Of a stretch of 64,000 nucleotides of DNA, positions 346-14,049 are shown piece after piece (position 1 is the first letter of the stretch; the number at the start of each line of letters is the position of its first letter). The DNA lies in the NCBI GenBank assembly GCA_963768805.1, contig CAVYJI010000004.1:1415-65414 (forward strand), given 5' to 3'. The DNA comes from an uncultured Bacteroidales bacterium (lineage in GTDB: Bacteria > Bacteroidota > Bacteroidia > Bacteroidales > FEN-979). A model generated the notes under the pieces. It saw only the letters and a list, made by a program, of their open reading frames with translations. It was not told the origin of the DNA and searched no databases. The translations under genes and the position numbers were made by a program.

Positions 346-391
346 ATTACTAAAGGTGCTGGGATGGTAAGAATAGACTGGATTCATTTCA

Positions 392-1528: not shown

Positions 1529-1653
1529 GCAGTAACGCGCCGCCGGCGGTCACTTTACGGGCATTAGCAAAGTTTATATTTGAATTTCGTTCCCATGTTT
1601 AGTATCCCCAATCAGCCTCCTTACCAGAATTCCCCGCCTTGTTCGGCTGCAAG
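1529..1653 (-). repeat. junction element family R2, copy 3 (diverged)
   Basis: Lies directly 3' of orf151. It shares blocks with the copies at 3252-3388 and 12981-13124: ..ATTAGCAAAGTTTATATTTG.., ..CTCCTTACCAGAATTCCCCGCC..GGCTGCA. It contains the CCGCCGGCGG palindrome. Confidence 0.6.
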
Positions 1654-1684
1654 CACATTATAGCCAGTGCATTTTTTCTACTAT

Positions 1685-2140
1685 TTATTTTATAGTCACA
1701 AGAAATATTCCGCCTAAATTACAAGATAAATAGTGAACATAATATTTCCCATTTGACAATTTTGTGATGTCAAGTAAAACTTCTTGTTTTTGATTAAAGG
1801 TTCCATGAGTCAAGGGCTCAATTTTTACTCTTGTATTACTCTGGATATTTTTTAAGTAAGTGCTGTCGTAAATAAACACATTCGTTTCTGTTCCTCCGTT
1901 TGGAAATTTTAGTTTGTGAAATTTCTTTATATTGTCACGAGTTACAGTTGCTTTAAATTCCATGGTGTCAAGTCCTGCTGGTAAGTCCACGTAATAAATT
2001 CCGATGATGTCTTTTTGCCAAATAATATTTCCTACTTTGTCTTGTCGCATACTGTTTACAAAACCAACAATTTGATAAATGCAATAACCAAGACCTACGG
2101 TCAAAATGATAATAGAAATTATGAGAATTTTTCTTTTCAT
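1685..2140 (-). CDS. hypothetical membrane-anchored protein
   Basis: 151-aa ORF with an N-terminal hydrophobic anchor (MKRKILIISIIILTVGLGYC). No conserved motif recognised. Confidence 0.6.
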   Translation of the reverse strand: MKRKILIISIIILTVGLGYCIYQIVGFVNSMRQDKVGNIIWQKDIIGIYYVDLPAGLDTMEFKATVTRDNIKKFHKLKFPNGGTETNVFIYDSTYLKNIQSNTRVKIEPLTHGTFNQKQEVLLDITKLSNGKYYVHYLSCNLGGIFLVTIK

Positions 2141-2200
2141 TTGTTGAATTAAGTAGTCGTGCTATCGTCTATTAGCATTAGCTATAATGGCTTGTTGTGC

Positions 2201-2578
2201 TCATTTTTTTGTTTTTAATAGATTATCCTTAACTTCTTCTATTACAAATTTGCTATCTTCTTTCCCTTCTGTATTATACAACTTAAGCTCATTTGTTTCT
2301 TCATTGAATGTCCAGGTTCCATCTACCATGTAATGGCAGTCATCTGGCGATAAAACAAGCCATGAACAGGTTGAACCACTTTTTAAATTCATTTTAAATC
2401 TGTACCTGGACGGTGGAAATACCTTATAGTCACATGGCCTGAAAATAAAAACATTTGATCCTTGAGTATTTTCTTCTCTTGAGTCTGTCCAACATCCAAG
2501 TAAATCCGATTTGCTTATTTTTTGTCCGGATACTTGAAAAGAAAACAATAAAAGGGTAATTATTGTAAAATATTTCAT
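2201..2578 (-). CDS. hypothetical secreted protein
   Basis: 125-aa ORF with a signal peptide (MKYFTIITLLLFSFQVSGQ). Small Cys-containing, beta-rich sequence. Confidence 0.6.
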   Translation of the reverse strand: MKYFTIITLLLFSFQVSGQKISKSDLLGCWTDSREENTQGSNVFIFRPCDYKVFPPSRYRFKMNLKSGSTCSWLVLSPDDCHYMVDGTWTFNEETNELKLYNTEGKEDSKFVIEEVKDNLLKTKK

Positions 2579-2657
2579 TCTGACAATTATTTGGTTAGTG
2601 CTTGTTTTTCTAAATCGAGAACAACGTTCGGCTGTTACGCGACGTGCGGGATCAAAA

Positions 2658-3233
2658 TTAGGTGATGATGCTATTACGTTTTGGTTTTGTAATATATTTC
2701 GACCATTGTTTGAAGTTATTCTCCCATTTTAGTAATTCTTTTGGACTTCTAAAATGTTCCGATAGAATTATTGGAACTTCGTGAATGTAATGTTTATCTG
2801 GTTTCAAAGATTCATCAAATTCAATTTCAACCTTTTTTCTTGCGACATAGAATAAATATCCTCGTTGCATTTTATAATTATATTTATCGGAAAAATGATT
2901 TTTTGCTTTAACAATACGATTAAAATCTGTAATTGCCGATCTTGGTTTAGTTTTTTTCCATTCTTTTAATTCAATAATTATCCATGGTTTTTTGCGGCGG
3001 AAAATTACAATATCCGGGTGAATACCAATTTCTTTTAAATATGGTTTATTCAAAACACGAATCATTCTTTTCGTCCGATCATCATCCATAAAATAATCAT
3101 TTAATATCTGCCAGACATGACATTGTAGGTCAGCTTCAGATAAAATTTGGAATGTTTTGTACCGTTCCAAAATTTCTTTTGCAAGAGATGTAAAAATAAA
3201 ATCTTGTAACTCTTTGATGCCTAATCTTTTCAT
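2658..3233 (-). CDS. PD-(D/E)xK nuclease-fold-like protein (hypothetical)
   Basis: 191-aa ORF. ..IGIHPDIVIFRRKKPWIIIELKEWKK.. fits the (P)D..x(n)..ExK restriction-endonuclease-like motif. No other domain seen. Confidence 0.45.
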   Translation of the reverse strand: MKRLGIKELQDFIFTSLAKEILERYKTFQILSEADLQCHVWQILNDYFMDDDRTKRMIRVLNKPYLKEIGIHPDIVIFRRKKPWIIIELKEWKKTKPRSAITDFNRIVKAKNHFSDKYNYKMQRGYLFYVARKKVEIEFDESLKPDKHYIHEVPIILSEHFRSPKELLKWENNFKQWSKYITKPKRNSIIT

Positions 3234-3251
3234 TTGGTTTATCCTTTCTTA

Positions 3252-3388
3252 ATAGCATTATCACCTAAGCCCCTTATGCAACGTCATTGCGGGTTTTAGC
3301 AGATTTTATCTTTGTTCTTTGTTTTCATTTTATAAGCCACAACCACTTTCTTTACCGATTGCCCTCGTATTGCGATTGGCCTGCTTGC
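3252..3388 (-). repeat. junction element family R2, copy 1
   Basis: Lies 3' of the protease gene and 18 nt upstream of the next start. 3301-3360 aligns without gaps to 13031-13090 at 50/60 positions. Variable hairpin GCAACGTCATTGC at 3278-3290. Confidence 0.85.
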
Positions 3389-3434
3389 TATGGCCAGGGC
3401 CTTATTTTTCTTCTTCAGTTTCTGGGTAGGTAGT

Positions 3435-4322
3435 TTATTTTGTCTGTCCGCTTATCCAGTTCGCAAACACGGACACTCTTGTCCACTCGTCTATTTGTCC
3501 GTAATAACCGGATTTCATCAATTGCTCAATGTTTACAGCCGATCCAGAAGTAATACCTATTAATTCCCAACCAGATTTTGTTTGTCTGAAGAGTCCACCT
3601 CCGCTGTCACCGGCAGCACTAATATATTCTAATGGTCTTGGTTTAGAACTTCCCATTTTATTACAGTCTTTTCGCGTGGGATGGTCAAAATCACTTAGTA
3701 GTTTTGTTGGTTTGTCATTCAATATAAATCCAGATAAACTGTCAATAACATTTTCACCCGCAATCTTTTTATTATAAAAAGCAACTGTCTGCGGTTGGCT
3801 TGCAATGCCAGATGCTCCAAAACCCACACCAACAACATTAGAATGTAATTCATTAAAAGAATTGGAAACTGTTGCCGGTGAAATTATTTTCACCACTTCT
3901 TTAAGTTCAATCAGGGCAACATCACAGTTGCCTTTTGTTATGCTGTCAAGATATGCAGGATATATTTTAAGAGATTTACCCTGATAACGTTTACCATTAA
4001 ATGAAAAAAAGTAAGTTGTGATGTCACCGGTTCTAGGATTTATTGGTTGGTTTATTATCATCGTCATTCCATTGGACACAATGGTATCTAATCGGAAATC
4101 ATTCTCAATAAAAACATGAGCTGCGGACAAGACAAATCGGTCACTAACTAAAACACAGGAACCTGCAGGAACTGTGTCCTTAAATACTTGTCCGACGCAA
4201 TCAAATTGTTTTTGCTGAGCTAATTTTAAATACTTTTCTTCCTTAACATCATCTCTGATGATGCCTGAAAAAAAAGTTAAAAATGCCAAAACACTAAATG
4301 TCAATATTGTTATCTTTTTCAT
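3435..4322 (-). CDS. trypsin-like serine peptidase (S1 family), exported
   Basis: Catalytic triad contexts LSAAHVF (His), DVALIEL (Asp) and GDSGGGLF (Ser). N-terminal signal/anchor MKKITILTFSVLAFLTFFSG. Confidence 0.85.
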   Translation of the reverse strand: MKKITILTFSVLAFLTFFSGIIRDDVKEEKYLKLAQQKQFDCVGQVFKDTVPAGSCVLVSDRFVLSAAHVFIENDFRLDTIVSNGMTMIINQPINPRTGDITTYFFSFNGKRYQGKSLKIYPAYLDSITKGNCDVALIELKEVVKIISPATVSNSFNELHSNVVGVGFGASGIASQPQTVAFYNKKIAGENVIDSLSGFILNDKPTKLLSDFDHPTRKDCNKMGSSKPRPLEYISAAGDSGGGLFRQTKSGWELIGITSGSAVNIEQLMKSGYYGQIDEWTRVSVFANWISGQTK

Positions 4323-4345
4323 ATCGCTCGTTATGCTTCAGTATA

Positions 4346-4909
4346 TCATTTTAAATATTCTGCAAATTTGTTGAAGCTAAATCCAATACCATGAATATTT
4401 GGCTCTAATCTTATTGATTTTATGAATGCTTTTCCGATTCCAGGTTTTAATTCCTTACAAATTCTAAAATCCTTAAAGTCCTTCTTCATTTCAATATCAT
4501 TTGTGATTTTTGTCACGAGATTCATTACATCACTCTCAGTCTTACACAACTTTTTAATAGGAATTAAAATATACCTTAGATCATGTTCCTTTTTTTTATC
4601 AGGGTTCACCATATATTCTCGAAATATATGTGGGTTGGTTCTTGTTATTAAAATTGCTGGTAAAAGTTCAGAAGCATCCTCTCCATTAATTTGATGCCAA
4701 GACAACACTTCATTATCGAAATGTCCGACCTCACCCACCCCAGTGATCACTGCTGATTCATTTTGAGATGACCACCTAGCTAAGTTTTGAAAGTTTCTCT
4801 GTAAAACATTCACTATTGGCTCATCCCAACCATAATCGAGAATATAAATGAAATAGTCTCTTGTGGCTTCCTTCGAAAGCACTTCTAAACTATGAACCAT
4901 TAATCCCAT
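4346..4909 (-). CDS. hypothetical cytoplasmic protein, first gene of a two-gene unit with the protease
   Basis: 187-aa ORF, 23 nt upstream of the protease gene. No signal peptide. Alternating beta/alpha pattern (DYFIYILDYGWDEP.., SAVITGVG.., LPAILITRTNP). No family recognised. Confidence 0.6.
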   Translation of the reverse strand: MGLMVHSLEVLSKEATRDYFIYILDYGWDEPIVNVLQRNFQNLARWSSQNESAVITGVGEVGHFDNEVLSWHQINGEDASELLPAILITRTNPHIFREYMVNPDKKKEHDLRYILIPIKKLCKTESDVMNLVTKITNDIEMKKDFKDFRICKELKPGIGKAFIKSIRLEPNIHGIGFSFNKFAEYLK

Positions 4910-4938
4910 AAGTTTTGTATTTTAAATGATTTATTGAG

Positions 4939-5128
4939 GCTAACCGACTGGGTAAACTCAACTGTCGATGTTATTTTATCTATGTTTTCATCCGAAACTT
5001 GCTGTTATCCACCATATTTCAATTGTATAACCGCATTGGAACTACATACCATCCACCAAATATAATCCAAAATATTGCACAAAGAATTTTCCGAAATATT
5101 ATTTTTGGATGAAAAAGACATCAACAGG
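4939..5128 (-). repeat. leader repeat family R1, copy 1
   Basis: Same element as 13811-13955. Carries a 44-nt internal insertion (5015-5058) bracketed by the direct repeat ATCCACCA (5007-5014, 5051-5058). Ends 30 nt upstream of the orf187 ATG. Confidence 0.85.
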
Positions 5129-5203
5129 TAAGGACCCCATTTGGGATCACATCCAAACTGCTTGCCTAATAAGTTGCCTAACTTTAGGCCCCTACATTCA
5201 AAA

Positions 5204-5340
5204 CATCAGTAAAATAATATGACACAGAAGGGCGGATGAATCCCGACGGGGTCACGAAGACAAATGCGAAATGTGAAGTATGACGTACATTACATTTTAC
5301 ATTTCGCATTTTGCTTTTCAGACTTCTCATTTTGCAATAG
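5204..5340 (+). ncRNA. X element copy a: conserved leader + heptad-periodic hairpin + T-rich tail (candidate small RNA or terminator module)
   Basis: Leader is CAGAAGGGCGGATGAATCCCGACGGGGTCAC..ACAAATG. A 13-bp perfect stem pairs AAATGCGAAATGT (5262-5274) with ACATTTCGCATTT (5299-5311), followed by TTTTGCTTTT. Confidence 0.35.
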
Positions 5341-5467
5341 GAAAGTAATTTAGAATTGAAATAAATTTGTAGCGAATTGTGAACGGAGGAGTATAAACCC
5401 GCAAAACACCGGCAAAGGCTAATACCTGCCAGCAAAGTTGACAGTTTTTAAGAAAGTAATTTTGAAA

Positions 5468-5631
5468 CAGCAGTAAAATCAAATGATCCAGAAGGCCATA
5501 TGAATCCCAGGCGGATCACCTGACAAATGTAAAGTGCAAGGTGCAAAGTGTAATATTTTGCACTTTGCACTTTTCGTTTTACACCTCACCCTTTTCGTTT
5601 AACACCTTGCACTTACACATTGACCTTTCAC
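5468..5631 (+). ncRNA. X element copy b (tandem to copy a)
   Basis: Leader is CAGAAGGCCATATGAATCCCAGGCGGATCACCTGACAAATG. The stem pairs GTGCAAAGTG (5541-5550) with CACTTTGCAC (5561-5570) and is extendable to ~20 bp, followed by TTTTCGTTTT. Clean 7-nt periodicity over 5534-5631. Confidence 0.35.
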
Positions 5632-5781
5632 TGATCAGGTATAATATAGATAAAATACAGGAATCTGAATAATTCAGTATTACAGACTTTCATCTGGTGA
5701 ACAAGGCCACGAGCAGTGTATTATAATACTCCCCAAATTTCAGACCACTGGTTAAGTTGAAAATTTAACTTAATTTTATCA

Positions 5782-6075
5782 GTGGATATGAGAGCAAAAA
5801 GAAGAAAATTTACAGCAGCCTTTAAGGCACAAGTAGCCATAGAAGCGCTCAAGGAGCGTTTGACATTGGCGGAGATCTCAAAAAAGTATGAGGTCCATCC
5901 TAATTTAATATCAAAATGGAAGGCGGAGTTTCTGACCCGATCGGCAGAGATCTTTGAGACCCAACCTCCGGAGGTGGATTTTGAAGCTGAACGGCAAAAA
6001 CTCTTTGCCAAAATCGGCGAGTTAGAAATACAGCGTGACTGGCTAAAAAAAATTTCAAAACAGGCCGGACTTTGA
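5782..6075 (+). CDS. IS3-family transposase OrfA (HTH)
   Basis: MRAKRRKFTAAFKAQVAIEALKERLTLAEISKKYEVHPNLISKWK.. is the typical IS3/IS911 OrfA helix-turn-helix with a leucine-zipper tail. Confidence 0.9.
   Translation: MDMRAKRRKFTAAFKAQVAIEALKERLTLAEISKKYEVHPNLISKWKAEFLTRSAEIFETQPPEVDFEAERQKLFAKIGELEIQRDWLKKISKQAGL
6045..6052 (+). other. programmed -1 frameshift slippery run (A8)
   Basis: Read as CTA AAA AAA ATT in the orfA frame. orfB is in the -1 frame and overlaps the orfA stop. This is the standard IS3 A-AAA-AAA motif. Confidence 0.7.
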
Positions 6076-6899
6076 AAGAGGTCCTGAGCTATATTGAAGA
6101 AAATGAGGATATAAGCATTCGATGTCAATGTGAATTGCTGGAAGTAAATCGAAGCACAGTGTATTATAAACCTGCCCCGGAATCGGAAGAAAATCTTGCC
6201 ATTATGCGGTTGATGGATGAGCATCATCTGGATCATCCAACACATGGTGTGCTGCAGATGCAGGATTACCTGTTTATGTGCAGTTTTATCGTCAATACAA
6301 AACGCGTTCGCCGGTTACTCAGGCTGATGGGGATCATGGCGTTATACCCAAAACGGAATCTGAGTAAATTGGGGCTTGCAAAATACATCCGGCCCTATCT
6401 TCTGAAAGGACTTACAATCGAACGACCTAACCAGGTCTGGGGCATTGACATTACTTATATCCCCATGGCCAATGGATTTATGTACCTGACTGCTATTATT
6501 GATCTTTACAGCCGTTATATTGTGGGCTGGGATGTATTCAACAGTCTTAATGCAGAAAACACACTGGAGGTGTTAAAACAGGCCATAGCACAGCATGGTA
6601 AGCCTGAGATTATTAATTCGGATCAGGGGAGTCAGTTTACCTGTGCACTTTGGACTGAATTTGTCGACAAGGCTGAAATAAAAATCAGTATGGATGGCAG
6701 GGGCCGGGCCACGGATAATATTTTCATCGAGCGCTTCTGGCGTACGTTAAAACAGGATTATGTGTATTTAAACCCAGCTGAAAGCGGCACAGAGCTTTAT
6801 AGAGGATTAAGAAAGTATATCCTTTACTACAATAACCAGAAGTCCCACCAGGGAATTGGAAGAATCAGTCCGGCTAAACTGTATCATCAGGCAGCATAA
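6072..6899 (+). CDS. IS3-family transposase OrfB (DDE/rve integrase core)
   Basis: WGIDITYIPM..(D), IINSDQGSQFT (D) and NIFIERFWRTLKQD (E) form the DDE catalytic core. The track start is a TTG; the protein is probably made as an OrfAB fusion. Confidence 0.9.
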   Translation: MKEVLSYIEENEDISIRCQCELLEVNRSTVYYKPAPESEENLAIMRLMDEHHLDHPTHGVLQMQDYLFMCSFIVNTKRVRRLLRLMGIMALYPKRNLSKLGLAKYIRPYLLKGLTIERPNQVWGIDITYIPMANGFMYLTAIIDLYSRYIVGWDVFNSLNAENTLEVLKQAIAQHGKPEIINSDQGSQFTCALWTEFVDKAEIKISMDGRGRATDNIFIERFWRTLKQDYVYLNPAESGTELYRGLRKYILYYNNQKSHQGIGRISPAKLYHQAA

Positions 6900-7058
6900 A
6901 AGTTATGAACAAAAGAAAAAAGAAGCAAAAAAGAAAAACTGTTAACATCGAGAATAACTCTTCGAGTTATTTCCCGATATTAACAGCAATTACAACAAAT
7001 TATATCTTAAAAAATTCAATTAAGAAAAGTAAAATCGTGGTCTAAAGAATGGGGAGTA

Positions 7059-7163
7059 GAAAATATTGATATAATAGTTCCCGACCCCAGGTTTCTTTTT
7101 AGTAAGGAAACCACCATTGGCTAACTGATTCAAATAACTGGATGCTGTTTTCTTTACAAACAT
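7059..7163 (-). pseudogene. remnant of a second Fic-family gene (C-terminal winged-helix part only), truncated by the IS
   Basis: The hand translation MFVKKTASSYLNQLANGGFLTKKKPGVGNYYINIF parallels ..ITAANYLNQLSDDGFLTKKKLGVGNYYINE of the intact Fic gene (8838-9926). The nucleotide match TGATATAATAGTTCCC..TTAGTAAGGAAACC is visible at 7067-7110 versus 8873-8916. Confidence 0.75.
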
Positions 7164-7279
7164 AGTTCAATATGTAAAGAAAAATCAATTTTCTTCTTAA
7201 TCATTCTCCTGATCATTGAAAAAATCGGAAGAATGAATGATTGTCGATGTATTAATTACTTTTAATTACATTTGATGCC

Positions 7280-8767
7280 ATGAGAAAACTAGTCAGGTTA
7301 TTTTGTTTTGCAACCCTTCTCCTGAACTTTTCGGTAATATACGGGTATTGCCAGAATGTATATCCAGTATGCAACAAGCGCGTGGGAGAATTAGAAGCCG
7401 TACAGTCGCAATCCGGCGCTTTTGTGGTTGCTTTGATGAATACTGATTCCATTCCCTTCGGAACCCATTGTTACATAACAATATACAGGAGCACTAATAA
7501 CGGTGTCAGTTGGGATTCTGTAACTTATATCCCGAATCCCAATGGCGGCTATCTTGCTGACCCTGCAATGACAATAGATAGCTCAGGTGTTATCAGCCTG
7601 ATTTTTATGAGCAATCCGTCAAAGGATAAGAGTTATCATAAAATAATTGCAAATCCCTCAAAAGTTGACAGCGGCTATGCAGAGACTCACCTTCATCTTT
7701 ACAGATCGACAGATGAAGGATTGTCCTGGCAATATATCGGTGAGCCGTATTCTGGAATCAATATGGCAGATTATCCCAAGATCATGTCGTCGGGATCGGG
7801 AAAACTGGAACTTACTTATACTCTGTACACACCTGATTCCTTCGTTAATTTTGTTTCTTCCTCCGATGGAGGGGTAACGTGGAGTACCCCGGTTACATTC
7901 ACCTCCCCGCAAGGAAGCACCATATATCAATCGGTAGGGTGTGACCTTGGAATCACGGGAAATAATGCATTTTGCCTGGCATTCGGGGATTATAATTACG
8001 ACAGTATTTATTTTGCAATCAGCACGGACTCAGGGACCATATGGAGTACATTGGATACCATTCCGGGGATCATTACCTGGACTGTTAATAAAGTGATCAG
8101 TCAAAAAGGTATGATCCCAATCGGGATTCTGTCTCATCAGCCGCATACACTTTGGAACCCTCTTTATTTCTCGGTCAGTAACAACCAGGGGGCCACATGG
8201 ATAACGAGCGTACTTTCCGACAGCGCATCTTATGCACAGGGGTTCATTGATACATATGGTATTTTTCATGTTATTTACAATAAACTGGAGCTGCCTGAAT
8301 TCAAACTGATGTATACCTATTCGGATGACGGTGGCATCACCTTCAGGGAACCTGTTGCCCTTTTCTCAGGAACAGAGGACGTAACCGGGTGGACCGGCGA
8401 ATACCAATCACTGATCCTTGCCCAGGACCATATGTTTCATCTGACCTTTATAGACCTTAGTGATTCCGCCCGAACTAAGCAAATTATTTTTGCCCCGGTC
8501 CTCGATGGCATCAGGAACGGGTTAGTAGAGGATAAAATGCCAAGAATATTCCCTAACCCTACCCAAGATGTTCTGAATATAGAAATTCCAGCTGGATCAA
8601 CGTTCACCCGATATGAGATATCAGATATAAAAGGAACAGTTATTCAATCGAATGATCTGAGTGCGGGCAGGTTACAGATCGATTTATCAAAACAGGAAAA
8701 TGGCATGCTGTTTCTGAAATTAATTTCTCCCACCAGAACTGTCATATGCAAGATTAGCAAATGGTGA
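7280..8767 (+). CDS. BNR/Asp-box repeat (sialidase-superfamily beta-propeller) protein with T9SS type-A C-terminal sorting domain
   Basis: Six SxDxGxTW-type boxes (STNNGVSWD, STDEGLSWQ, SSDGGVTWS, STDSGTIWS, SNNQGATWI, SDDGGITF), a signal peptide and the C-terminal ..IFPNPTQDVLNIEI.. CTD. Confidence 0.85.
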   Translation: MRKLVRLFCFATLLLNFSVIYGYCQNVYPVCNKRVGELEAVQSQSGAFVVALMNTDSIPFGTHCYITIYRSTNNGVSWDSVTYIPNPNGGYLADPAMTIDSSGVISLIFMSNPSKDKSYHKIIANPSKVDSGYAETHLHLYRSTDEGLSWQYIGEPYSGINMADYPKIMSSGSGKLELTYTLYTPDSFVNFVSSSDGGVTWSTPVTFTSPQGSTIYQSVGCDLGITGNNAFCLAFGDYNYDSIYFAISTDSGTIWSTLDTIPGIITWTVNKVISQKGMIPIGILSHQPHTLWNPLYFSVSNNQGATWITSVLSDSASYAQGFIDTYGIFHVIYNKLELPEFKLMYTYSDDGGITFREPVALFSGTEDVTGWTGEYQSLILAQDHMFHLTFIDLSDSARTKQIIFAPVLDGIRNGLVEDKMPRIFPNPTQDVLNIEIPAGSTFTRYEISDIKGTVIQSNDLSAGRLQIDLSKQENGMLFLKLISPTRTVICKISKW

Positions 8768-8773
8768 AAGATC

Positions 8774-8836
8774 CGTAATACGTGACGCGCAATACGTGAT
8801 TCGTGATACGCGATGCGGGATGCGTTACTCGTGTAC
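8774..8836. repeat. nine degenerate CGNNNNN heptads filling a convergent intergenic gap
   Basis: cgtaata cgtgacg cgcaata cgtgatt cgtgata cgcgatg cgggatg cgttact cgtgtac. The array lies between the stop at 8767 (+) and the stop at 8838 (-). Confidence 0.85.
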
Positions 8837-8837
8837 C

Positions 8838-9926
8838 TTAGGCCTGTGATAATAATGCGAACAGCGGCTCATTGATATAATAGTTCCCAACTCCCAGTTT
8901 CTTCTTAGTAAGGAAACCATCGTCGGAAAGCTGGTTAAGGTAATTTGCCGCTGTTATCCGTGAAACCTTCAGATCCTTTTGAATGAACTCTATCTTCGTG
9001 TACGGATGACAGAACAGATTATTTATCAGTTCCTGGCTGTAAAACTTGTAGCCATCCCGTATCCGGTGTTTGTAATCCATCATAAGGTCTTTGATCTTCA
9101 ATATCAGGGAGATCGTATCGATGGACGTTTTTTCAATGCCATCAAGTATAAAAAGGATCCATGGTTCCCACTCACCTTTCTCACTCACATTCTGCAGATG
9201 CTGGTAACAATCACCTTGATGATCAATAATGAAACGGCTTAAGTAAAGAATGGGCAGGTGTAAAAGAGATTTCTGAACGAGGTATAAAATATTAATGATC
9301 CTTCCTGTACGGCCATTCCCGTCAAAAAAAGGATGGATACTTTCAAACTGAAAATGAATCACTGCCATTTTTACCAGAGGATCCACTTCACTCAAAGAAT
9401 CATCATTGATGTATCTTTCCAGGTCAGTCATAGCCTTCACAATTATATCATAATCCTGGGGAGGAGTAAAGACAGTTTCCCCGGTCTGATCATTTTTCAA
9501 TACAGTTCCCGGCAACTTCCTGAACCCGGCTTTGTTCATTTCAAGGACAGACTGAATCTTAAGGATATGATTGGCCGTGATCAGGTTGTTCCTCCGTACA
9601 AGATCGAACCCGGTATTCAGTGCAGCCACATAATTCTGGACTTCTTTAGTTGCAACTGTCTGCCACCCGCTTACATTCAATCCTGCCTTGTATAATTCAT
9701 CCTGAGTAGTAATAATATTCTCAACAGCAGAACTGTCTTTTGCTTCCTGCAATCCCAGAGTATTCAGCAATATTGCCTGGTTGGGAATAGTACCGGCAAC
9801 TCCCTTCAACTCAGCCAGGGCACGATGAGCCAATGGCAACTTTTTAAGGACCTTTCTTGACTCAAGCTCGATACCCGGAGGCAGAATTCCGGGCTGCCAT
9901 GGAATATTTGCAGGATTCGTTTCCAT
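8838..9926 (-). CDS. Fic/DOC family protein (AMPylase-type) with C-terminal winged-helix
   Basis: Canonical Fic motif HPFFDGNGRTGR (HxFx[D/E]GNGRxxR). Fic N-terminal region and C-terminal HTH-like tail. Confidence 0.9.
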   Translation of the reverse strand: METNPANIPWQPGILPPGIELESRKVLKKLPLAHRALAELKGVAGTIPNQAILLNTLGLQEAKDSSAVENIITTQDELYKAGLNVSGWQTVATKEVQNYVAALNTGFDLVRRNNLITANHILKIQSVLEMNKAGFRKLPGTVLKNDQTGETVFTPPQDYDIIVKAMTDLERYINDDSLSEVDPLVKMAVIHFQFESIHPFFDGNGRTGRIINILYLVQKSLLHLPILYLSRFIIDHQGDCYQHLQNVSEKGEWEPWILFILDGIEKTSIDTISLILKIKDLMMDYKHRIRDGYKFYSQELINNLFCHPYTKIEFIQKDLKVSRITAANYLNQLSDDGFLTKKKLGVGNYYINEPLFALLSQA

Positions 9927-9947
9927 TTGCCAGGTTTTTATCGAAAT

Positions 9948-10035
9948 CTTTACAAAGGAGAGTCTTATGTAAAGATTTCTTCATTTCCTTTACAAAGGTA
10001 GTAAGATATGTAAAGAAAATTGGATTTTCTTTACA
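9948..10035. promoter_or_regulatory. five phased CTTTACA/TGTAAAG heptamers (operator-like) upstream of fic
   Basis: CTTTACA at 9948, 9988 and 10029 alternates with TGTAAAG at 9968 and 10009, at 20-21 bp spacing. The same CTTTACA-N13-TGTAAAG pair occurs at 7152-7178 next to the Fic remnant. Confidence 0.6.
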
Positions 10036-10037
10036 CA

Positions 10038-10069
10038 ATAGAGGGGTTCAAAATCTTGAACCCCTCTAT
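10038..10069. repeat. REP-like perfect palindrome ATAGAGGGGTTCAA-AATC-TTGAACCCCTCTAT
   Basis: 14-bp arms and a 4-nt loop, in the divergent fic/ATPase intergenic region. The core GGGGTTCAAAAT.TTGAACCCC recurs inside the RAYT gene (11919-11948). Confidence 0.85.
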
Positions 10070-10123
10070 TGACAAAAGCGAATATTTATGTAAATTTGCA
10101 GTACAAATACAAAATTACATAAA

Positions 10124-11278
10124 ATGATCCAGAGAAGCTTATCCGAAACCATATTGAAATTTGCCGGAAAGTACCCGGTAGTTTCTATCACCGGCCCCAG
10201 GCAATCAGGAAAAACAACATTGGTGAAAGCCCTTTTTCCAAAGCATAAATATATATCCCTGGAGAACCCGGAAACAAGGAGCATTACCCTGAGTGATCCT
10301 AAAAGTTTATTCGAGCCGAAAAATCAGTTTTTGATCCTTGATGAGATTCAGCATGTTCCTGACTTGTTATCGTACATCCAAGTGATCTCTGATGAAGAGA
10401 AAATACACGGACAATTCATCCTGACCGGTTCACAGAGCCTGATCCTGAGTGAAAAGATATCCCAGACGCTGGCAGGCCGAACGGCGATCCTGAAATTACT
10501 CCCGTTCAGTCTGTCTGAAATCAGCGAATTGAAGCAGGTAAAGGATTTTTCATACGAAGACTTCATCTTTAAAGGATTTTACCCCAGAACATATGATCAG
10601 GACATTTCCCCTGAGGAGTTTTATCCTTTCTACCTGGAAACCTATGTACAAAGGGATGTTAGAGAAATTCAGAACGTAAGGGATCTGAACACGTTTACCA
10701 ATTTTGTAAGACTGTGTGCCGGACGTATTGGCCAGCTTATGGATTATTCTTCTCTCGCTAAAGATACGGGTGTCAATGTCGGAACCATTAAGGGCTGGAT
10801 TTCGATCCTGGAAGCAGGATTCATCGTTTTCCAGCTTTACCCTTATTATAAGAATTTCGGAAAAAGAATGATCAAGGCCCCGAAACTTTATTTTACAGAT
10901 CCCGGGCTTGCTGCTTTTCTCCTGGGAATTAAAAGCGCTGAGCAAGTGAGGACTCACTACCTGAAGGGTTCCCTGTTTGAGAACCTGGCCGTTCTTGAAT
11001 TGCTTAAGCAGCGATTAAATCAGGGTCTTCCCCATGATCTCTGGTTTCTCCGGGATAGTAATCACAATGAAGTGGATGTTGTTGCTGAGAAGGAACAACT
11101 GCAGTGGATCGAGATGAAATCTGCGCGAACGTTTTCGCCTGATTTTCTGAACTCGTTTCGTTTCCTTGATAAAAATCCGGAAACTCAAAACGGAAATAAA
11201 TCGATCATTTATGGGGGTGATGAATCCTTTACCTATAAAGAAGTGCAAATTATGTCTTGGAGAGACCTGGGAATTTGA
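10124..11278 (+). CDS. AAA-family ATPase with DUF4143-type C-terminal domain
   Basis: Walker A ITGPRQSGKTTL and Walker B FLILDEIQHVP. The length and C-terminal half are typical of the AAA_14/DUF4143 'ATP-binding protein' family. Confidence 0.8.
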   Translation: MIQRSLSETILKFAGKYPVVSITGPRQSGKTTLVKALFPKHKYISLENPETRSITLSDPKSLFEPKNQFLILDEIQHVPDLLSYIQVISDEEKIHGQFILTGSQSLILSEKISQTLAGRTAILKLLPFSLSEISELKQVKDFSYEDFIFKGFYPRTYDQDISPEEFYPFYLETYVQRDVREIQNVRDLNTFTNFVRLCAGRIGQLMDYSSLAKDTGVNVGTIKGWISILEAGFIVFQLYPYYKNFGKRMIKAPKLYFTDPGLAAFLLGIKSAEQVRTHYLKGSLFENLAVLELLKQRLNQGLPHDLWFLRDSNHNEVDVVAEKEQLQWIEMKSARTFSPDFLNSFRFLDKNPETQNGNKSIIYGGDESFTYKEVQIMSWRDLGI

Positions 11279-11524
11279 CTTCAGATTCCCTACCCAGATG
11301 AGTTTAACTAAAAGCACTGCTTATTTTCAAATTAGCAGTATATTTGGTTAAATAAAACTCAGCTTCCATTTAGTTGATAGTTTAAACTAAAATCACCCAA
11401 AAAAAGTAGGTTCGAATCCCATTACGATCCGAACCCAGGACCCCTTTTATAGGCTCAAAATTGTTGCCTAACGGCCTGCCTAACGAAAATTGACTAATGC
11501 TATAACATAGGCCATTAGCGGCGT

Positions 11525-11652
11525 TCAGAAGGTACTATTGAATCCCAGGCAGATCACAGCCCAAATGGCAAAGTGCAAGGTGCAATTACGTGCATTTTGC
11601 ACTTTTTTTTATACACCCTGCACTTTTCTATTGCATTTTACACTTCTCGCCT
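11525..11652 (+). ncRNA. X element copy c
   Basis: Leader is CAGAAGGTACTATTGAATCCCAGGCAGATCACAGCCCAAATGG. The stem pairs AAAGTGCAA (11570-11578) with TTGCACTTT (11597-11605) and has an inner TGCA/TGCA stem, followed by a T8 run (11603-11610). Confidence 0.35.
11570..11610 (+). terminator. hairpin + T8, intrinsic-terminator-like (part of X copy c)
   Basis: ~15-bp composite stem followed by TTTTTTTT on the plus strand, about 290 nt downstream of the ATPase gene. Confidence 0.45.
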
Positions 11653-11671
11653 TCTGGTTCGCGATTCATAG

Positions 11672-12325
11672 TTAATCAATCCATTTTTCCGGATTAGTGC
11701 TAATGTATTCCGAAATCCGGCGGTAAGACGCTTCATTCCGTATGAGATGTTCATAATAGTTCCGTTGCCAGAGTCGCGTTCCCATTTGATTTTCACGAAA
11801 CCATTTTGTCACCCCGGTTTTATATCCACGGATAACAGTCCCAACCGACCGTGGGATTATTTTTTGGAATTCATGGTGTTGATGTTTTATGGATACAACA
11901 TTTCGTTTTAATGGTCGTCGTAGGGGTTCAAAATTTTGAACCCCTACGAAATTTTGAACCCCTACGATACCGGTATATCCATCAATCGCCCCATTTTGCC
12001 CATTACCCACATCGGAATGTCCATCGATCCCCGCATTTTCCCGATGTTCCGGATTGTTTACCAATTCAATAATCCCATGAATATGATCCGGCATCACAAT
12101 GAAATCATGCAAAACCACATTTGGATAATGGATCGGGATTTCCATCCAACATTTTTGGGCAATGACCCCTGTTTCATTCAAATACATCATGGCATTGTCA
12201 ATGAATCTGAATATCCTTTGTTTTTCATGGGTACAGATTGTAATAAAAAATATCCCATCTTGCGAATAATCATAACCTTTTAACCGTGTACTGCGACGAT
12301 GATGATATTGTGTAAAATCTTTCAT
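11672..12325 (-). CDS. REP-associated tyrosine transposase (RAYT) / IS200-like Y1 HUH transposase
   Basis: HUH motif in FIVMPDHIHGIIEL and a C-terminal catalytic-Tyr region WQRNYYEHLIRN. Single gene without IS ends. Variable insert between the motifs. Confidence 0.8.
   Translation of the reverse strand: MKDFTQYHHRRSTRLKGYDYSQDGIFFITICTHEKQRIFRFIDNAMMYLNETGVIAQKCWMEIPIHYPNVVLHDFIVMPDHIHGIIELVNNPEHRENAGIDGHSDVGNGQNGAIDGYTGIVGVQNFVGVQNFEPLRRPLKRNVVSIKHQHHEFQKIIPRSVGTVIRGYKTGVTKWFRENQMGTRLWQRNYYEHLIRNEASYRRISEYISTNPEKWID
11919..11966 (-). repeat. GTAG-headed REP palindrome plus an extra half-site, in frame inside the RAYT gene
   Basis: In gene sense the sequence reads GTAGGGGTTCAAAATTTC GTAGGGGTTCAAAATTTTGAACCCCTAC, which encodes VGVQNFVGVQNFEPL. 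The palindrome spans 11919-11948 and the extra arm 11949-11966. Confidence 0.85.
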
Positions 12326-12444
12326 CTGTTGTTTTTCACCTTTATGTGCTGAGAAAGCAAAAGGTGGTACATGAATGGAAATAATTATGCGATTCTGCCA
12401 TCGGGGGGCTTGTATTTCCGTTCGGCTTCATGGAAACAATTCAA

Positions 12445-12558
12445 GGCACTCTTACATGCCGGTAGCTGCTTGCAAAATTTTATCCGACTTTTAATTTGCT
12501 ATTCGTAATCACGGTTTGGGACAGGGATCCCTTTGCCTTACCAACTGCCCCGGCCTGC
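12445..12558 (-). repeat. junction element family R2, copy 4 (diverged)
   Basis: Lies 3' of orf107. The blocks are the hairpin GGCActcttacaTGCC, then ..GCAAAATTTTATCCGAC.., then ..TTGCCTTACCAACTGCCCCGGCCTGC, in the same order and orientation as the other copies. Confidence 0.55.
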
Positions 12559-12569
12559 GATTTACGGCT

Positions 12570-12588
12570 CGTTGTAGGCAATGCAATT
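12570..12588. repeat. 19-bp inverted repeat, left arm (CGTTGTAGGCAATGCAATT)
   Basis: The reverse complement of 12981-12999 (AATTGCATTACCTACAACG) matches at 18/19 positions. The pair brackets orf107. Confidence 0.85.
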
Positions 12589-12598
12589 TGATTATTTC

Positions 12599-12922
12599 TC
12601 AATAATATACTTCATTTATAAATGCAACAATAATTAATAAAACAAATAAAACTAACGATGGCAGAATTAAAATTATTGAAATATATTTAATCTTCTTATT
12701 TGATCTGGTTTTCCATTTCTTTAATATCCATATTAATGATATAAAGGCGGTTAGTACACTGATCAAAAGAAATGAAGCAAAAAAATAGGTATATGTATTT
12801 GAATCATATTTTGATATTAATCCAAAAATATTATGATCTATTGTACTAAGTATAGAAACTGCTGTTGAGATTATTGAAACAATAGATAAAGTTAAAGTTA
12901 CTTTTTCTCCTTTGGATGCCAT
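12599..12922 (-). CDS. small hypothetical membrane protein (3 predicted TM segments)
   Basis: 107-aa ORF with three hydrophobic stretches. AT-rich. No family recognised. Confidence 0.55.
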   Translation of the reverse strand: MASKGEKVTLTLSIVSIISTAVSILSTIDHNIFGLISKYDSNTYTYFFASFLLISVLTAFISLIWILKKWKTRSNKKIKYISIILILPSLVLFVLLIIVAFINEVYY

Positions 12923-12980
12923 ACCCGATTATTTTATTTTTTAATAAAGGCCCGGTTAAAAAAATAGTTAAACCTTGACG

Positions 12981-13124
12981 AATTGCATTACCTACAACGC
13001 CCTACCCGCAGCAGCAGTGCGGATGTTAGCAGATTTTATCTTTGCTTGTTGTTTCCATTTTAGTAGCCACACCTACTTTCCTTACCGATAAACCCCGCAT
13101 TGAGGCTGCACGCTCCTTAGCTGT
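12981..13124 (-). repeat. junction element family R2, copy 2 (its first 19 nt are the right arm of the orf107 inverted repeat)
   Basis: Lies 3' of orf218. 13031-13090 matches 3301-3360 at 50/60 positions without gaps. Variable hairpin CCGCAGCAGCAGTGCGG at 13006-13022. Confidence 0.85.
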
Positions 13125-13133
13125 AAATAAATA

Positions 13134-13790: not shown

Positions 13791-13810
13791 TTTACCTATA
13801 TTTATTTACA

Positions 13811-13955
13811 GCTAACGACTGTGTAAACTCAACTATTGATGCTATTGTAACCATGTTTTCATCCGAAACCTGCGGTTATCCACCAAATATAATCCAAATT
13901 ATTGCACAAAGAATATTCCGGAATATTATTTTTGAATGAAAAAGACATCAAGAGG
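13811..13955 (-). repeat. leader repeat family R1, copy 2
   Basis: GCTAACGACTGTGTAAACTCAACTATTGATG...AAAGACATCAAGAGG matches 4939-5128 minus the 44-nt insertion. Ends 21 nt upstream of the orf218 ATG. Confidence 0.85.
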
Positions 13956-14049
13956 TTTATTTTTAAACGAACTACCCCGTTGCAAGCAGCGATACTTAAA
14001 CAAAATCTATCTCGATGTATTTAAAAAGGTAAATGCAGATTGGTATATC

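What the first reader, a model, noticed from the sequence alone, without database searches (positions are those of the whole stretch)
1529..13124. A shared structured junction element (4 copies) follows consecutive orphan ORFs, giving a cassette-array-like organisation with no integrase in view
Copies lie at 1529-1653, 3252-3388, 12445-12558 and 12981-13124. All have the same orientation, and each sits directly 3' (gene sense, minus strand) of a small unrelated orphan ORF: orf151, the protease, orf107 and orf218.

3301-3360 and 13031-13090 align without gaps at 50/60 positions. The other two copies are diverged but keep the same blocks in the same order. Read in gene sense, each copy has:
- GCAG(G)CC..G(C)GGGG..GGTAAGG;
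- an A/T-rich core (..AAAGATAAAATCTGCTAA..);
- a short hairpin at a fixed position whose sequence differs in every copy (GCAAtgacgTTGC, CCGCActgctgcTGCGG, the CCGCCGGCGG palindrome, GGCAtgtaagagTGCC);
- a GCGTT../CTTAGG.. box 18-60 nt before the next start codon.

One element per ORF, conserved flanks and a position-conserved but sequence-variable hairpin resemble integron attC sites, REP/BIME units or MITE ends. The only recombinases in view are an IS3 transposase and a RAYT HUH transposase that abuts copy 4. On the gene strand the canonical attC core GTTAGGC occurs three times nearby (complement of 5176-5182, 11466-11472 and 11478-11484). I could not find clean R''/R' pairs in the R2 copies themselves.
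Basis: partly seen in the sequence, partly recalled or inferred. Interest (0 to 1): 0.7.

Follow-up and report, generated by a model that had tools for sequence, protein, structure and literature searches.

The report
Decayed integron-type cassette sites in Bacteroidales
The four repeats are worn-out copies of a 127-base recombination site that marks the end of mobile gene cassettes, and related DNA suggests they belong to an integron-like gene-capture system in wetland Bacteroidales whose recombinase lacks the domain that defines classical integron integrases.

Summary
A covariance model built only from copies outside the window finds exactly four matches in 64 kb: 12992-13122, 3263-3390, 1530-1663 and, weakly, 12449-12577.

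About 130 further copies occur in Bacteroidales and related wetland or permafrost MAGs and metagenomes. Conservation stops at CTAAC on the 5' side and GTTAG on the 3' side. The consensus folds as single-stranded DNA into a long hairpin supported by compensatory changes. 83% of copies directly follow a same-strand ORF.

Three results show cassette behaviour:
- Loci that share an ORF plus element diverge exactly at the GTT.
- Each ORF is flanked by a cassette-specific 17-19 bp inverted repeat that starts at G|TTA.
- This repeat carries a conserved A·C mismatch at position 10.

Elsewhere the same elements, mixed with other attC-like types, lie downstream of an IntI-related tyrosine recombinase and a conserved attI-like head. 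That recombinase lacks the IntI extra domain. Both window arrays start with a homologous head.

The window has no such recombinase, its copies no longer fold better than shuffles, and some junctions are deleted. It therefore holds two decayed, integrase-less cassette arrays. The attC reading is supported; REP/RAYT and MITE are not. The platform looks like an undescribed integron variant.

The parts
13816..13956 (-). Head A: attI-like leader of array A. It ends ...GAGTTTACACAGTCG|TTAGC, with the crossover at G13816|T13815. It carries a GGATAAC box and a TTTG..TAtaTTTG promoter-like motif.
   Evidence: It repeats at 4929-5129 (81-94%). It is homologous to the heads directly downstream of the recombinase in L082 and L120 (blastn E 5e-8 and 2e-6; alignment). 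The promoter-like motif was read by eye and not tested.
12998..13815 (-). Cassette A1: 5' arm (13798-13815), orf218 (13134-13790), 3' arm (13117-13134), then copy c4.
   Evidence: The inverted repeat I1 covers 13100-13134 and 13798-13832. The arm finder scores it 17/18, against 0 hits in shuffled windows.
12998..13120 (-). Copy 4 (c4), the best-preserved attC-type element. R''-like box is CTAAG (C mutated to G). R'-like box is G|TTGTAG, with the crossover at G12998|T12997.
   Evidence: The covariance model gives 121.8 bits, E 4e-30. Part of the long-range stem is kept, but the overall fold is not significant.
12445..12997 (-). Cassette A2: 5' arm (12981-12997), orf107 (12599-12922), 3' arm (12572-12588), then copy c3.
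   Evidence: Inverted repeat I15 is 19 nt and 95% complementary. The arm finder scores it 16/18. In L005, orf107 is interrupted by an IS256-like insertion at 12856.
12445..12574 (-). Copy 3 (c3), a strongly diverged element of a subfamily also seen in L018, L036 and L058. R'' is CAAC. The R' box is degenerate (C|TTGAAT).
   Evidence: The covariance model gives 28.4 bits, E 3e-5, with many broken pairs.
4944..5129 (-). Head B: second attI-like leader. It ends ...GAGTTTACCCAGTCGG|TTAGCC, with the crossover at G4944|T4943.
   Evidence: It is the direct repeat D3/D5 of head A. It is homologous to the L082 and L120 heads.
3269..4943 (-). Unit B1: orf187 (4346-4909), a trypsin-like protease (3435-4322) and copy c2. 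Its arms are no longer complementary.
   Evidence: ORFs are. The protease matches Pfam Trypsin at 4.4e-9. I compared the arms by eye and found no convincing pairing.
3269..3390 (-). Copy 2 (c2). R'' is TAGC and R' is C|TTAGGT, with the crossover at C3269|T3268. Its stems are largely broken.
   Evidence: The covariance model gives 84.6 bits, E 3e-20, with many non-pairs. The fold has z about 0.
2625..3268 (-). Cassette B2: 5' arm (3250-3268), orf191 (2658-3233) and 3' arm (2658-2676, overlapping the stop codon). A 3'-half remnant of an element follows (2625-2657, ..CCCGCAC..AACG|TTG).
   Evidence: Inverted repeat I16 is 19 nt and 95% complementary. The arm finder scores it 18/18, with the A·C mismatch at position 10. 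The remnant was identified by reading the sequence.
2188..2624 (-). Unit B3: orf125 (2201-2578) with weak arms (TTGTTCTC.. and ..GAGCACAAC). The element after it is deleted to the 5-nt junction CACAAC-AAGCC-A|TTA (2188-2200).
   Evidence: Read from the sequence. The covariance model finds only a non-significant partial match at 2170-2233 (E 0.1).
1536..2187 (-). Cassette B4: 5' arm (2174-2187, after A2188|T2187), orf151 (1685-2140), 3' arm (1661-1674), then copy c1.
   Evidence: Read from the sequence. The arms are complementary over about 13 bp and carry the family's A·C mismatch at position 10. The G-to-A change at the crossover base is matched by a C-to-T change in TAAT.
1536..1660 (-). Copy 1 (c1), the last element of array B. 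R'' is TAAT and R' is G|TTACTG, with the crossover at G1536|T1535. No matching arm lies further downstream.
   Evidence: The covariance model gives 83.1 bits, E 8e-20. A search for the partner arm found only the site itself. A phage-like region follows.

Best explanation
**What it is.** The four copies are attC-type cassette recombination sites. They belong to one sequence-conserved, 127-nt class, comparable in length and uniformity to the Vibrio VCR repeats. They mark the 3' ends of gene cassettes in two short arrays on the minus strand:
- Array A: head A, orf218, c4, orf107, c3.
- Array B: head B, orf187 plus protease, c2, orf191, remnant, orf125, deleted junction, orf151, c1.

**What is shown.**
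- The element is bounded by CTAAC and GTTAG.
- Its consensus folds as single-stranded DNA into a hairpin: a 6-bp outer stem, an asymmetric 1x4 loop, a 10-bp stem, a third stem, and an AT-rich top of about 70 nt.
- Units are exchanged between genomes with the break at G|TT. The element travels with the ORF upstream of it.
- Each cassette carries its own 17-19 bp inverted repeat, starting at the TT, with a conserved A·C mismatch at position 10.
- In other contigs such cassettes lie downstream, on the same strand, of a tyrosine recombinase and a conserved head ending ..CA(A/G)TCG|TTAG. The recombinase's closest solved relative is the Vibrio integron integrase, but it lacks that enzyme's extra domain.

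**What is inferred by analogy with integrons.** The recombinase binds the folded single strand and cleaves at G|TT. It excises a cassette as a circle, in which the two arms come together and add about 12 kcal/mol of stem. It then re-inserts the circle at the head.

**State of the window.** The system is inactive here. There is no recombinase in view, the core boxes are mutated, the hairpins are lost, and two junctions are deleted. The arrays are identical in all strain contigs recovered.
For: - **Copies confirmed.** A covariance model built without the window copies finds exactly the four copies.
- **Family.** There are 10 further copies in 9 MAG loci of Bacteroidales, Bacteroidota, Chitinophagaceae and Ignavibacteriales, and 100 metagenome loci. 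Conservation ends at CTAAC and GTTAG.
- **Fold.** The consensus folds as single-stranded DNA at -23.9 and -24.6 kcal/mol, z -4.2 and -5.5.
- **Pair counts.** 91.3% of cells are paired, against 23-41% when partners are slid. 66 cells show a change on both sides, against 30 +/- 4 in shuffles (0 of 500 reach it).
- **ORF association.** 65 of 78 copies follow a same-strand ORF within 90 nt, against 6 with an opposite-strand ORF boundary there.
- **Crossover.** Two locus pairs, L037/L044 and L042/L057, are 100% identical upstream and 99.2% in the element. They then diverge right after GTTAG and GTT respectively.
- **Arms between neighbours.** The 3' flank of one copy pairs with the 5' flank of the next copy at 14-16 of 18 positions. 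Flanks of the same copy pair at 6.1 of 18, which equals the random value.
- **Arms upstream.** 70 of 114 copies have a partner scoring at least 15/18 at 260-2199 nt upstream, nearly always preceded by ..CG. None of 114 shuffled controls reaches this.
- **Arm profile.** Positions 0-9 and 11-16 are 92-100% Watson-Crick. Position 10 is A·C in 54 of 62 pairs.
- **Circular form.** The reconstituted circular-form site is 12 kcal/mol more stable than the integrated form in 51 of 51 cases.
- **Window arms.** They are I1, I15 and I16, the only three such units in 64 kb, with 0 in shuffled windows.
- **Platforms.** L082, L120, L121, L123, L124-126, L127, L128 and L130 all show the recombinase with a same-strand downstream region. 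A conserved head was read in five of these contexts (L082, L120, L121, L123, L124). Cassettes with arms were read or scored in L082, L120, L124, L127, L128 and L130. The other attC types there include canonical G|TTAGGC.
- **Recombinase.** It scores 225-244 bits on NF040815, which passes. It scores 221-243 on TIGR02249, below the 265 cut-off. Its best PDB match is VchIntIA 2a3v, where 23 residues stand in place of 66.
- **Window heads.** They are homologous to the platform heads.
Against: - No recombination has been observed. All mechanism steps rest on analogy.
- The window copies do not fold better than shuffled sequence, so they may be non-functional.
- The recombinase lacks the IntI additional domain. 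Cury et al. 2016 (PMC4889954) treat that domain as the defining feature of IntI, and it is reported as necessary for integrase activity.
- The consensus has no single-base bulges where classical attC sites have extrahelical bases.
- The link between recombinase and array rests on eight contexts, chosen through one query.
- The IntegronFinder attC model could not be run.
- RNAalifold with RNA parameters predicted almost no structure on the same alignment.
- The highly conserved AT-rich top has no assigned role.
Confidence: 0.8

Rival explanations
1. REP/BIME-type repeats dispersed by the neighbouring RAYT (a REP-associated tyrosine transposase). The ORF association would then be incidental.
For: A RAYT-like gene (11672-12325) lies directly downstream of c3. 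It matches NCBIfam REP_Tyr_transpos at 55.7 bits, below the 80 cut-off. The element family forms hairpins.
Against: - The RAYT is found only in this strain's own contigs and in none of about 110 other element-bearing loci.
- The elements are 127 nt, always co-oriented with the ORFs, and bounded by CTAAC and GTTAG.
- Units are exchanged at GTT together with their ORF.
- The window has different, shorter palindromic repeats that fit REPs better: GTGCAAAGTGCAA-type at 5525-5596 and 11563-11632, and GGGGTTCAA-type at 10024-10083 and 11918-11967.
Confidence: 0.03
2. A non-autonomous transposon (MITE) or IS end that prefers intergenic regions.
For: The element is multicopy, about 130 nt, self-complementary and intergenic. 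IS elements cluster in these loci: IS3, IS256-like, and integrase plus IS91-like pairs.
Against: - There is no target-site duplication.
- Identity between copies stops at CTAAC and GTTAG, not at terminal repeats.
- The flanks of one copy do not pair with each other, but the flanks of one ORF do.
- The same ORF plus element occurs with different downstream neighbours. A MITE would show the reverse: the same neighbours with or without the element.
Confidence: 0.03
3. A conserved transcript-level element (terminator, insulator, processing site or small RNA) carried at cassette ends. Its conservation would reflect an RNA function as well as, or instead of, DNA recombination.
For: The AT-rich top of about 70 nt is far more conserved than a variable terminal structure needs to be; many columns are at least 90% identical. 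The element sits between co-directional ORFs. The arms would also enclose each ORF in a transcript.
Against: - No Rfam family matches, even at permissive thresholds.
- RNAalifold finds no RNA consensus structure.
- The evidence for exchange at GTT and for recombinase-linked platforms is at the DNA level.
- High sequence uniformity of attC sites is normal in sedentary chromosomal integrons (established knowledge, e.g. the Vibrio repeats).
Confidence: 0.1
4. 3' UTR or terminator sequence inherited with a segmental duplication of head plus ORF plus element.
For: Head and element are both duplicated in the window in the same order (heads at 13800-13956 and 4929-5129; c4 and c2).
Against: The ORFs between head and element are unrelated, and similarity is confined to the head and the element. 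There are more than 100 copies in other genomes behind unrelated ORFs.
Confidence: 0.02

Closest known systems
attC sites (59-base elements) of sedentary chromosomal integrons, e.g. the roughly 125-nt Vibrio cholerae repeats
   Same: - Inverse-core and core boxes (xxTAAC and GTTAxx) lie at the two ends.
- The site is an imperfect palindrome that folds as a single strand into outer (R) and inner (L) stems with an unpaired spacer.
- It sits at the 3' end of a co-oriented ORF.
- The crossover is at G|TT, so the site moves with the upstream ORF.
- Sequence uniformity within a class is high.
- Cassette content is orphan secreted proteins or lipoproteins, toxin-antitoxin pairs and defence genes.
   Different: - There is no extrahelical single base in the inner stem of the consensus. 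Instead there is an asymmetric 1x4 (or 2x5) loop between the stems, shared by the other attC types of these arrays.
- The complementarity outside the core boxes runs for 17-19 bp, is cassette-specific, and carries a fixed A·C mismatch at position 10.
- As far as I know, classical cassettes pair over only the 7-bp core.
[quoted passage not shown] 2016, PMC4889954; Neron et al. 2022, PMC9024848)
   Same: There are two or more attC-type sites in a row with no integrase nearby. CALINs are interpreted as degraded or detached arrays. The window arrays fit this, decay included.
   Different: Each window array still begins with an attI-like head. Whether the IntegronFinder attC model would score these sites is untested.
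Inverted-integrase integrons (Treponema denticola type)
   Same: The recombinase gene is on the same strand as the cassettes and upstream of them. This arrangement is described in PMC4889954 and PMC13323075.
   Different: As far as I know, the Treponema-type integrases carry the IntI additional domain. The recombinase here does not. It also has an extra N-terminal stretch of about 95 residues with no Pfam match in the records.
Folded single-stranded attP of CTX phage, recombined by XerC/XerD
   Same: A Xer-type enzyme without the IntI domain acts on a hairpin that mimics a duplex core site. This is a possible model for how a recombinase lacking the extra domain could use the long regular stems seen here.
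   Different: This is only an analogy from established knowledge. There are no gene cassettes or arrays in that system, and nothing was tested here.
REP/BIME elements with RAYT
   Same: Both are multicopy intergenic palindromic DNA, and a RAYT gene is adjacent to c3.
   Different: Size, boundaries, strict co-orientation with ORFs and unit exchange all differ. The RAYT is absent from all other loci.

Membership tests
Integron attC site | Inverse core R'' (RYYYAAC) at the 5' end and core R' (GTTRRRY) at the 3' end | tested here: met
   The family consensus is nCTAAC...GTTAGnn, and conservation stops there. Only AAC and GTT plus one or two neighbours are fixed. In the window the boxes are mutated: c4 CTAAG and GTTGTAG; c2 ATAGC and CTTAGGT; c1 TATAAT and GTTACTG; c3 TACAAC and CTTGAAT.
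Integron attC site | Single-strand hairpin with paired R and L boxes separated by an unpaired central spacer, kept by structure rather than sequence | tested here: met
   The consensus fold has z -4.2 and -5.5. 91.3% of cells are paired, and compensatory changes exceed all 500 shuffles. This is not met by the window copies individually.
Integron attC site | Extrahelical bases in the L box that give bottom-strand selectivity | tested here: not met
   The consensus inner stems have only symmetric 1x1 mismatches. The asymmetry is a 1x4 loop between the stems, plus an A·C mismatch (G·T on the other strand) in the outer arm. The bottom strand is favoured by only 1.0 kcal/mol.
Integron attC site | Lies 3' of a co-oriented, usually promoterless ORF; one site per cassette | tested here: met
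   65 of 78 copies have a same-strand ORF ending within 90 nt upstream. Cassette spans are 260-2199 nt. Absence of promoters was not tested.
Integron attC site | Crossover between G and TT of R', so that the cassette is TT...ORF...attC...G | tested here: met
   Identity between loci ends at GTT or GTTAG. The cassette-specific arms begin at TT. The element co-varies with the upstream ORF, and the opposite case was never seen. This is comparative evidence, not biochemical.
Integron attC site | Scores above threshold with the IntegronFinder attC covariance model or HattCI | not testable with these tools
   That model is not available here. No Rfam family matched.
Complete integron | An integron integrase (tyrosine recombinase with the IntI-specific additional domain) adjacent to the array | tested here: not met
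   The window and the 8 kb to its left contain no tyrosine recombinase. The recombinases of related platforms score 221-243 bits on TIGR02249, below the 265 cut-off, in two stretches. They have 23 residues where VchIntIA has 66.
Complete integron | An attI site at the head of the array, next to the integrase | tested here: inconclusive
   A conserved head ending ..CA(A/G)TCG|TTA lies between the recombinase and the first cassette in L082, L120, L123 and L124. In L121 the head is present but cut by an IS3 before the crossover. Homologous heads start both window arrays. Function as a recombination site is inferred only from position and from the arm that starts at its TT.
CALIN | At least two attC sites clustered with no integron integrase nearby | tested here: met
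   c4 and c3 are about 550 nt apart; c2 and c1 are 1.7 kb apart with remnants between them. There is no recombinase in 72 kb. This depends on accepting the sites as attC.
REP/BIME with RAYT | Short (about 20-40 nt) palindromes flanking, and genome-wide co-occurring with, a RAYT gene | tested here: not met
   The element is 127 nt. The RAYT is absent from all other element-bearing loci.
MITE | Terminal inverted repeats with a target-site duplication, and presence/absence polymorphism of the element alone | tested here: not met
   The flanks of one copy are not complementary beyond random (6.1 of 18). The variation seen is exchange of whole ORF plus element units.

The most novel reading that the evidence does not exclude
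The window's relics may belong to a distinct, so far undescribed branch of integrons found in Bacteroidota, with relatives in Spirochaetota and Marinimicrobia MAGs. Its features would be:
- The recombinase is the closest relative of IntI but lacks the additional domain held to be essential. It has an extra N-terminal domain and lies on the same strand as the cassettes.
- The recombination sites lack extrahelical bases.
- The sites instead use an asymmetric spacer and a long cassette-specific outer stem with a fixed A·C mismatch 10 bp from the crossover.

Such platforms would be missed as integrons by integrase-based detection. This could account for part of the many 'integron-type' recombinases without a recognised integron reported from Stordalen Mire (PMC13323075).
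Probability: 0.45. Interest if true: 0.8.

Novelty: new variant of a known kind. Interest (0 to 1): 0.62.

Why it matters
Integrons are defined operationally by an integrase that carries a specific extra domain. Tyrosine recombinases without it that lie near attC sites have been set aside as 'not IntI' (PMC4889954).

Here a recombinase clade without that domain sits in eight contexts at the head of same-strand arrays of accessory genes; in six of them I read or scored cassettes with cassette-specific arms. The cassette boundaries obey the G|TT rule. If the clade is active, three things follow:
- The additional domain is not universally required for recombination of folded-DNA cassettes.
- The site features found here (asymmetric spacer, long outer stem, fixed mismatch) become testable determinants of strand and site choice.
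- Cassette-borne gene flow in Bacteroidota of wetlands and permafrost is larger than integrase-based surveys report.

For the window itself the result is modest. It holds two fossil arrays that explain the run of small orphan genes.

Tried and rejected
- **Rfam.** Searches at gathering and at permissive thresholds gave nothing relevant.
- **BLASTN.** Each copy against the window detects only the c2/c4 pair, so BLAST alone would have left c1 and c3 unconfirmed.
- **RNAalifold.** On the 86-sequence alignment it returned only 3 pairs. I therefore wrote the structure from the single-stranded DNA fold and tested it by pair counts.
- **Other integrases near elements.** The integrases in L024 and L051 are paired with an IS91-like Y2 transposase. 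They lie in either orientation next to arrays, so I treated them as IS insertions rather than the platform enzyme.
- **Arm downstream of c1.** A search for a partner arm found none.
- **L006 divergence.** The breakpoint at window 5506 proved to lie in an unrelated repeat next to a paralogous DUF4143 ATPase, not at a cassette boundary.
- **Strain comparison.** Ten contigs showed only IS differences and no cassette turnover.
- **Strand asymmetry by folding energy.** It is small, at 1 kcal/mol.
- **Promoter in the AT-rich top.** I looked by eye for a Bacteroidetes-type promoter on the gene strand and saw none that was convincing.
- **One script** timed out and gave nothing.

Full report

The minus strand of 1500-14000 carries small co-directional ORFs with repeats between them. 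BLASTN confirms only the c2/c4 pair (88 nt, 80.7%, E 2e-18). The stated 50/60 ungapped match is exact, whereas random 60-mers share 15.4 +/- 3.5 positions, maximum 30.

BLAST does not find c1 and c3. A degenerate pattern covering all four copies recovered 10 copies in 9 MAG loci and 100 metagenome loci. I aligned 86 distinct non-window copies and built a covariance model from them. On the window the model finds exactly four significant matches:

| Copy | Coordinates | Bits | E-value |
|---|---|---|---|
| c4 | 12992-13122 | 121.8 | 4e-30 |
| c2 | 3263-3390 | 84.6 | 3.3e-20 |
| c1 | 1530-1663 | 83.1 | 8.2e-20 |
| c3 | 12449-12577 | 28.4 | 3.1e-5 |

One caveat applies: the loci were collected with a pattern derived from the window copies. 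The model's other positions are independent of it.

**2. Anatomy of the family**

In 107 full copies, conservation begins at CTAAC and ends at GTTAG, spanning 127 nt. Outside these boxes the sequence is unrelated.

The consensus folds as single-stranded DNA into one long hairpin (-23.9 and -24.6 kcal/mol; z -4.2 and -5.5):
- CTAACG pairs with CGTTAG.
- An asymmetric loop follows (A opposite GGGG).
- GCAGGCAGCC pairs with GGCTGCCTGC.
- TGCGGG pairs with CCCGCA.
- The top is an AT-rich stretch of about 70 nt, mostly unpaired.

On the 86-sequence alignment, 91.3% of cells form standard pairs, against 23-41% when partners are slid. 66 cells carry changes on both sides, against 30 +/- 4 in shuffles (0 of 500). 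The clearest covariation is at columns 12/125, 13/124, 28/113 and 29/112. RNAalifold with RNA parameters did not recover this structure.

Of 78 copies with enough flank, 65 have a same-strand ORF ending within 90 nt upstream. Only 6 have an opposite-strand ORF boundary there.

**3. Evidence that the unit is a mobile cassette**

- **Exchange between loci.** L037/L044 and L042/L057 are 100% identical in the upstream ORF end and 99.2% in the element. They become unrelated immediately after GTTAG and GTT respectively. No pair shares only the downstream side. The element therefore travels with the ORF upstream of it, and the junction is at GTT.
- **Arms between neighbouring copies.** For adjacent copies up to 1100 nt apart, the 18 nt after GTTA of the upstream copy pair with the 18 nt before TAAC of the next copy at 14-16 of 18 positions, in 10 of 12 cases. 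The two flanks of one copy pair at 6.1 of 18, equal to random (6.3 +/- 2.2).
- **Arms upstream of each copy.** 70 of 114 copies have a reverse-complement partner of at least 15/18 at 260-2199 nt upstream. No shuffled control exceeds 13. The partner is nearly always preceded by ..CG, the end of a previous site or of a head.
- **Position profile.** Positions 0-9 and 11-16 are 92-100% Watson-Crick with all pair types. Position 10 is A opposite C in 54 of 62 pairs. Pairing fades at positions 17-19.
- **Energy.** Joining a cassette's 5' arm to the 3' end of its own element, as in an excised circle, stabilises the fold by 12 kcal/mol in 51 of 51 cases. The bottom strand is favoured by only 1 kcal/mol.

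**4. The platform and its recombinase**

tblastn found tyrosine recombinases in only a few loci. In L024 and L051 the integrase is paired with an IS91-like transposase and lies in either orientation next to arrays. I regard these as insertions.

In L082 (also seen as L052) a recombinase gene is followed on the same strand by a 250-nt head ending AGTTTGCACAATCG|TTAGGT, and then by cassettes. Each cassette has matching arms, and the sites are separated by 127-nt elements and by a different attC-like site.

Homologues of this recombinase are 366-417 residues long. I fetched their contexts:

| Locus | Context |
|---|---|
| L120 | Head, then six successive sites of four sequence types, including one ending in the canonical G\|TTAGGC |
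| L121 | Head cut by an IS3 |
| L123 | Head, then contig end |
| L124-126 | HigBA pair, head, then cassettes (head and cassette read in L124) |
| L127 (Spirochaetota) | Restriction, defence and toxin-antitoxin genes with the same kind of sites |
| L128 (835-kb contig, same study as the window) and L130 (982-kb contig) | Arrays of at least 6-10 kb carrying HigBA, PIN, TIR, Phd/YoeB and other genes |

The full-length proteins pass NF040815 ('site-specific tyrosine recombinase/integron integrase', 225-244 bits against a 220 cut-off). They fail TIGR02249 (221-243 bits against 265) and match it in two stretches. The best solved relative is the Vibrio integron integrase 2a3v (E 5e-45). Residues 271-293 of the query (23 aa) correspond to residues 181-246 of that enzyme (66 aa), so the IntI additional domain is absent. 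About 95 extra N-terminal residues have no Pfam assignment in the records.

**5. The window re-read**

Both window arrays begin with a head (13816-13956 and 4944-5129). The heads are homologous to each other and to the platform heads (blastn E 5e-8 and 2e-6; shared GGATAAC box, AATATAACATCA and AGTTTrCnCArTCG|TTAG).

- **Array A.** Head, orf218, c4, orf107, c3.
- **Array B.** Head, orf187 plus a trypsin-like protease, c2, orf191, a 3'-half remnant, orf125, a 5-nt junction, orf151, c1.

The arms of orf218, orf107 and orf191 are the inverted repeats I1, I15 and I16. They are the only such units in 64 kb, and shuffled windows give none. The arms of orf191 and orf151 keep the position-10 A·C mismatch.

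There is no recombinase in the window or in the 8 kb to its left. The core boxes are mutated, and none of the four copies folds better than shuffles on either strand. Ten contigs of the same strain differ only by IS insertions. These are fossil arrays.

**6. Comparison with known systems**

The geometry is that of integron cassettes and attC sites, and the window fits the definition of a CALIN. Three respects differ from classical integrons: the recombinase, the site structure (no extrahelical bases, an asymmetric spacer) and the long outer arms.

The literature held here:
- defines IntI by the extra domain and dismisses nearby recombinases that lack it (PMC4889954);
- notes that the insertion is 'not fully conserved' in an 'integron-like' recombinase subgroup (PMC8138268);
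- reports few integrons in Bacteroidetes complete genomes (PMC9024848);
- reports that 97.4% of Stordalen contigs with 'integron-type' recombinases are not complete integrons by IntegronFinder (PMC13323075).

Five full-text searches found no description of this platform. That is not proof that none exists.

**7. Verdict**

The finding is real, and the attC and cassette-array reading is right. The REP/RAYT reading is excluded by distribution, and MITE and duplication readings do not fit. The window copies themselves are inactive relics. The interest lies in the family and its recombinase, which look like an unrecognised integron variant. Their activity remains to be shown.

Noticed in passing
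window 5525-5596, 11563-11632, 62178-62209; also 5500-5520 and 11540-11560: A second, unrelated repeat family: a GTGCAAAGTGCAA...TTGCACTTTGCAC palindrome followed by GTGATCCGCCTGGGATTCA. One copy lies just downstream of the RAYT. The strain variant L006 diverges from the window inside such a repeat and continues into a 77%-identical paralogue of the DUF4143 ATPase (10124-11278).
   Followed up: partly
window 11672-12325 (RAYT), with 11918-11967 and 10024-10083: The RAYT-like ORF matches REP_Tyr_transpos only below the cut-off. It contains a perfect palindrome of about 50 nt (TCGTAGGGGTTCAAAATTT...AAATTTTGAACCCCTACGA) that encodes a duplicated GVQNF motif. A similar GGGGTTCAA palindrome lies at 10024-10083. 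This looks like a REP-type insertion inside the transposase gene.
   Followed up: no
L001 12141-20456 (left of window position 1) and window 1-1500: Directly beyond c1 lies a phage-like block on the same strand: an HTH_17 (excisionase-like) gene, then ORFs of 135 and 701 aa, a ClpP/S49-type protease (408 aa), a 315-aa ORF and others. Array B therefore abuts a possible prophage. Whether the array belongs to it was not resolved.
   Followed up: partly
window 5727-7058; L005 at window position 12856: An IS3-family element with 22-nt terminal inverted repeats is present in the window but absent from L006 and L007. A different strain contig (L005) has an IS256-like (Transposase_mut) insertion inside orf107.
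   Followed up: partly
L024 1369-3434; L051 5698-7573: Pairs of a tyrosine recombinase (40% identical to the platform enzyme) and an IS91-like Y2 transposase lie right next to cassette elements, in either orientation. The folded sites could be preferred targets for this IS type.
   Followed up: partly
L130 14151-14957; L128 17973-18428; L127 9372-15072: Recombinase-linked arrays carry a Pterin_bind (dihydropteroate-synthase-like) gene, a TIR (ThsB-like) gene, a methyltransferase/helicase/AAA_15 block, and several toxin-antitoxin pairs. This is typical content for sedentary integron arrays.
   Followed up: no
window 49518-49616 and 54994-55047: Two short tandem arrays: an 11-nt unit (AATCGAATCTC, about 9 copies) and a 7-nt unit (AGTGAGT, about 7 copies).
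   Followed up: no
window 13878-13956 and 5051-5129: The 5' part of both heads (94% identical) is specific to this genome. It contains TTTG...TATATTTG, which resembles the Bacteroidetes -33/-7 promoter consensus and could drive the array. The spacing looked short, and nothing was tested.
   Followed up: no
The tandem pair reads TTTTCG|TTAGGCAGGCCG|TTAGGCAAC. They may be remnants of other attC types, but no matching arms were found.
   Followed up: partly
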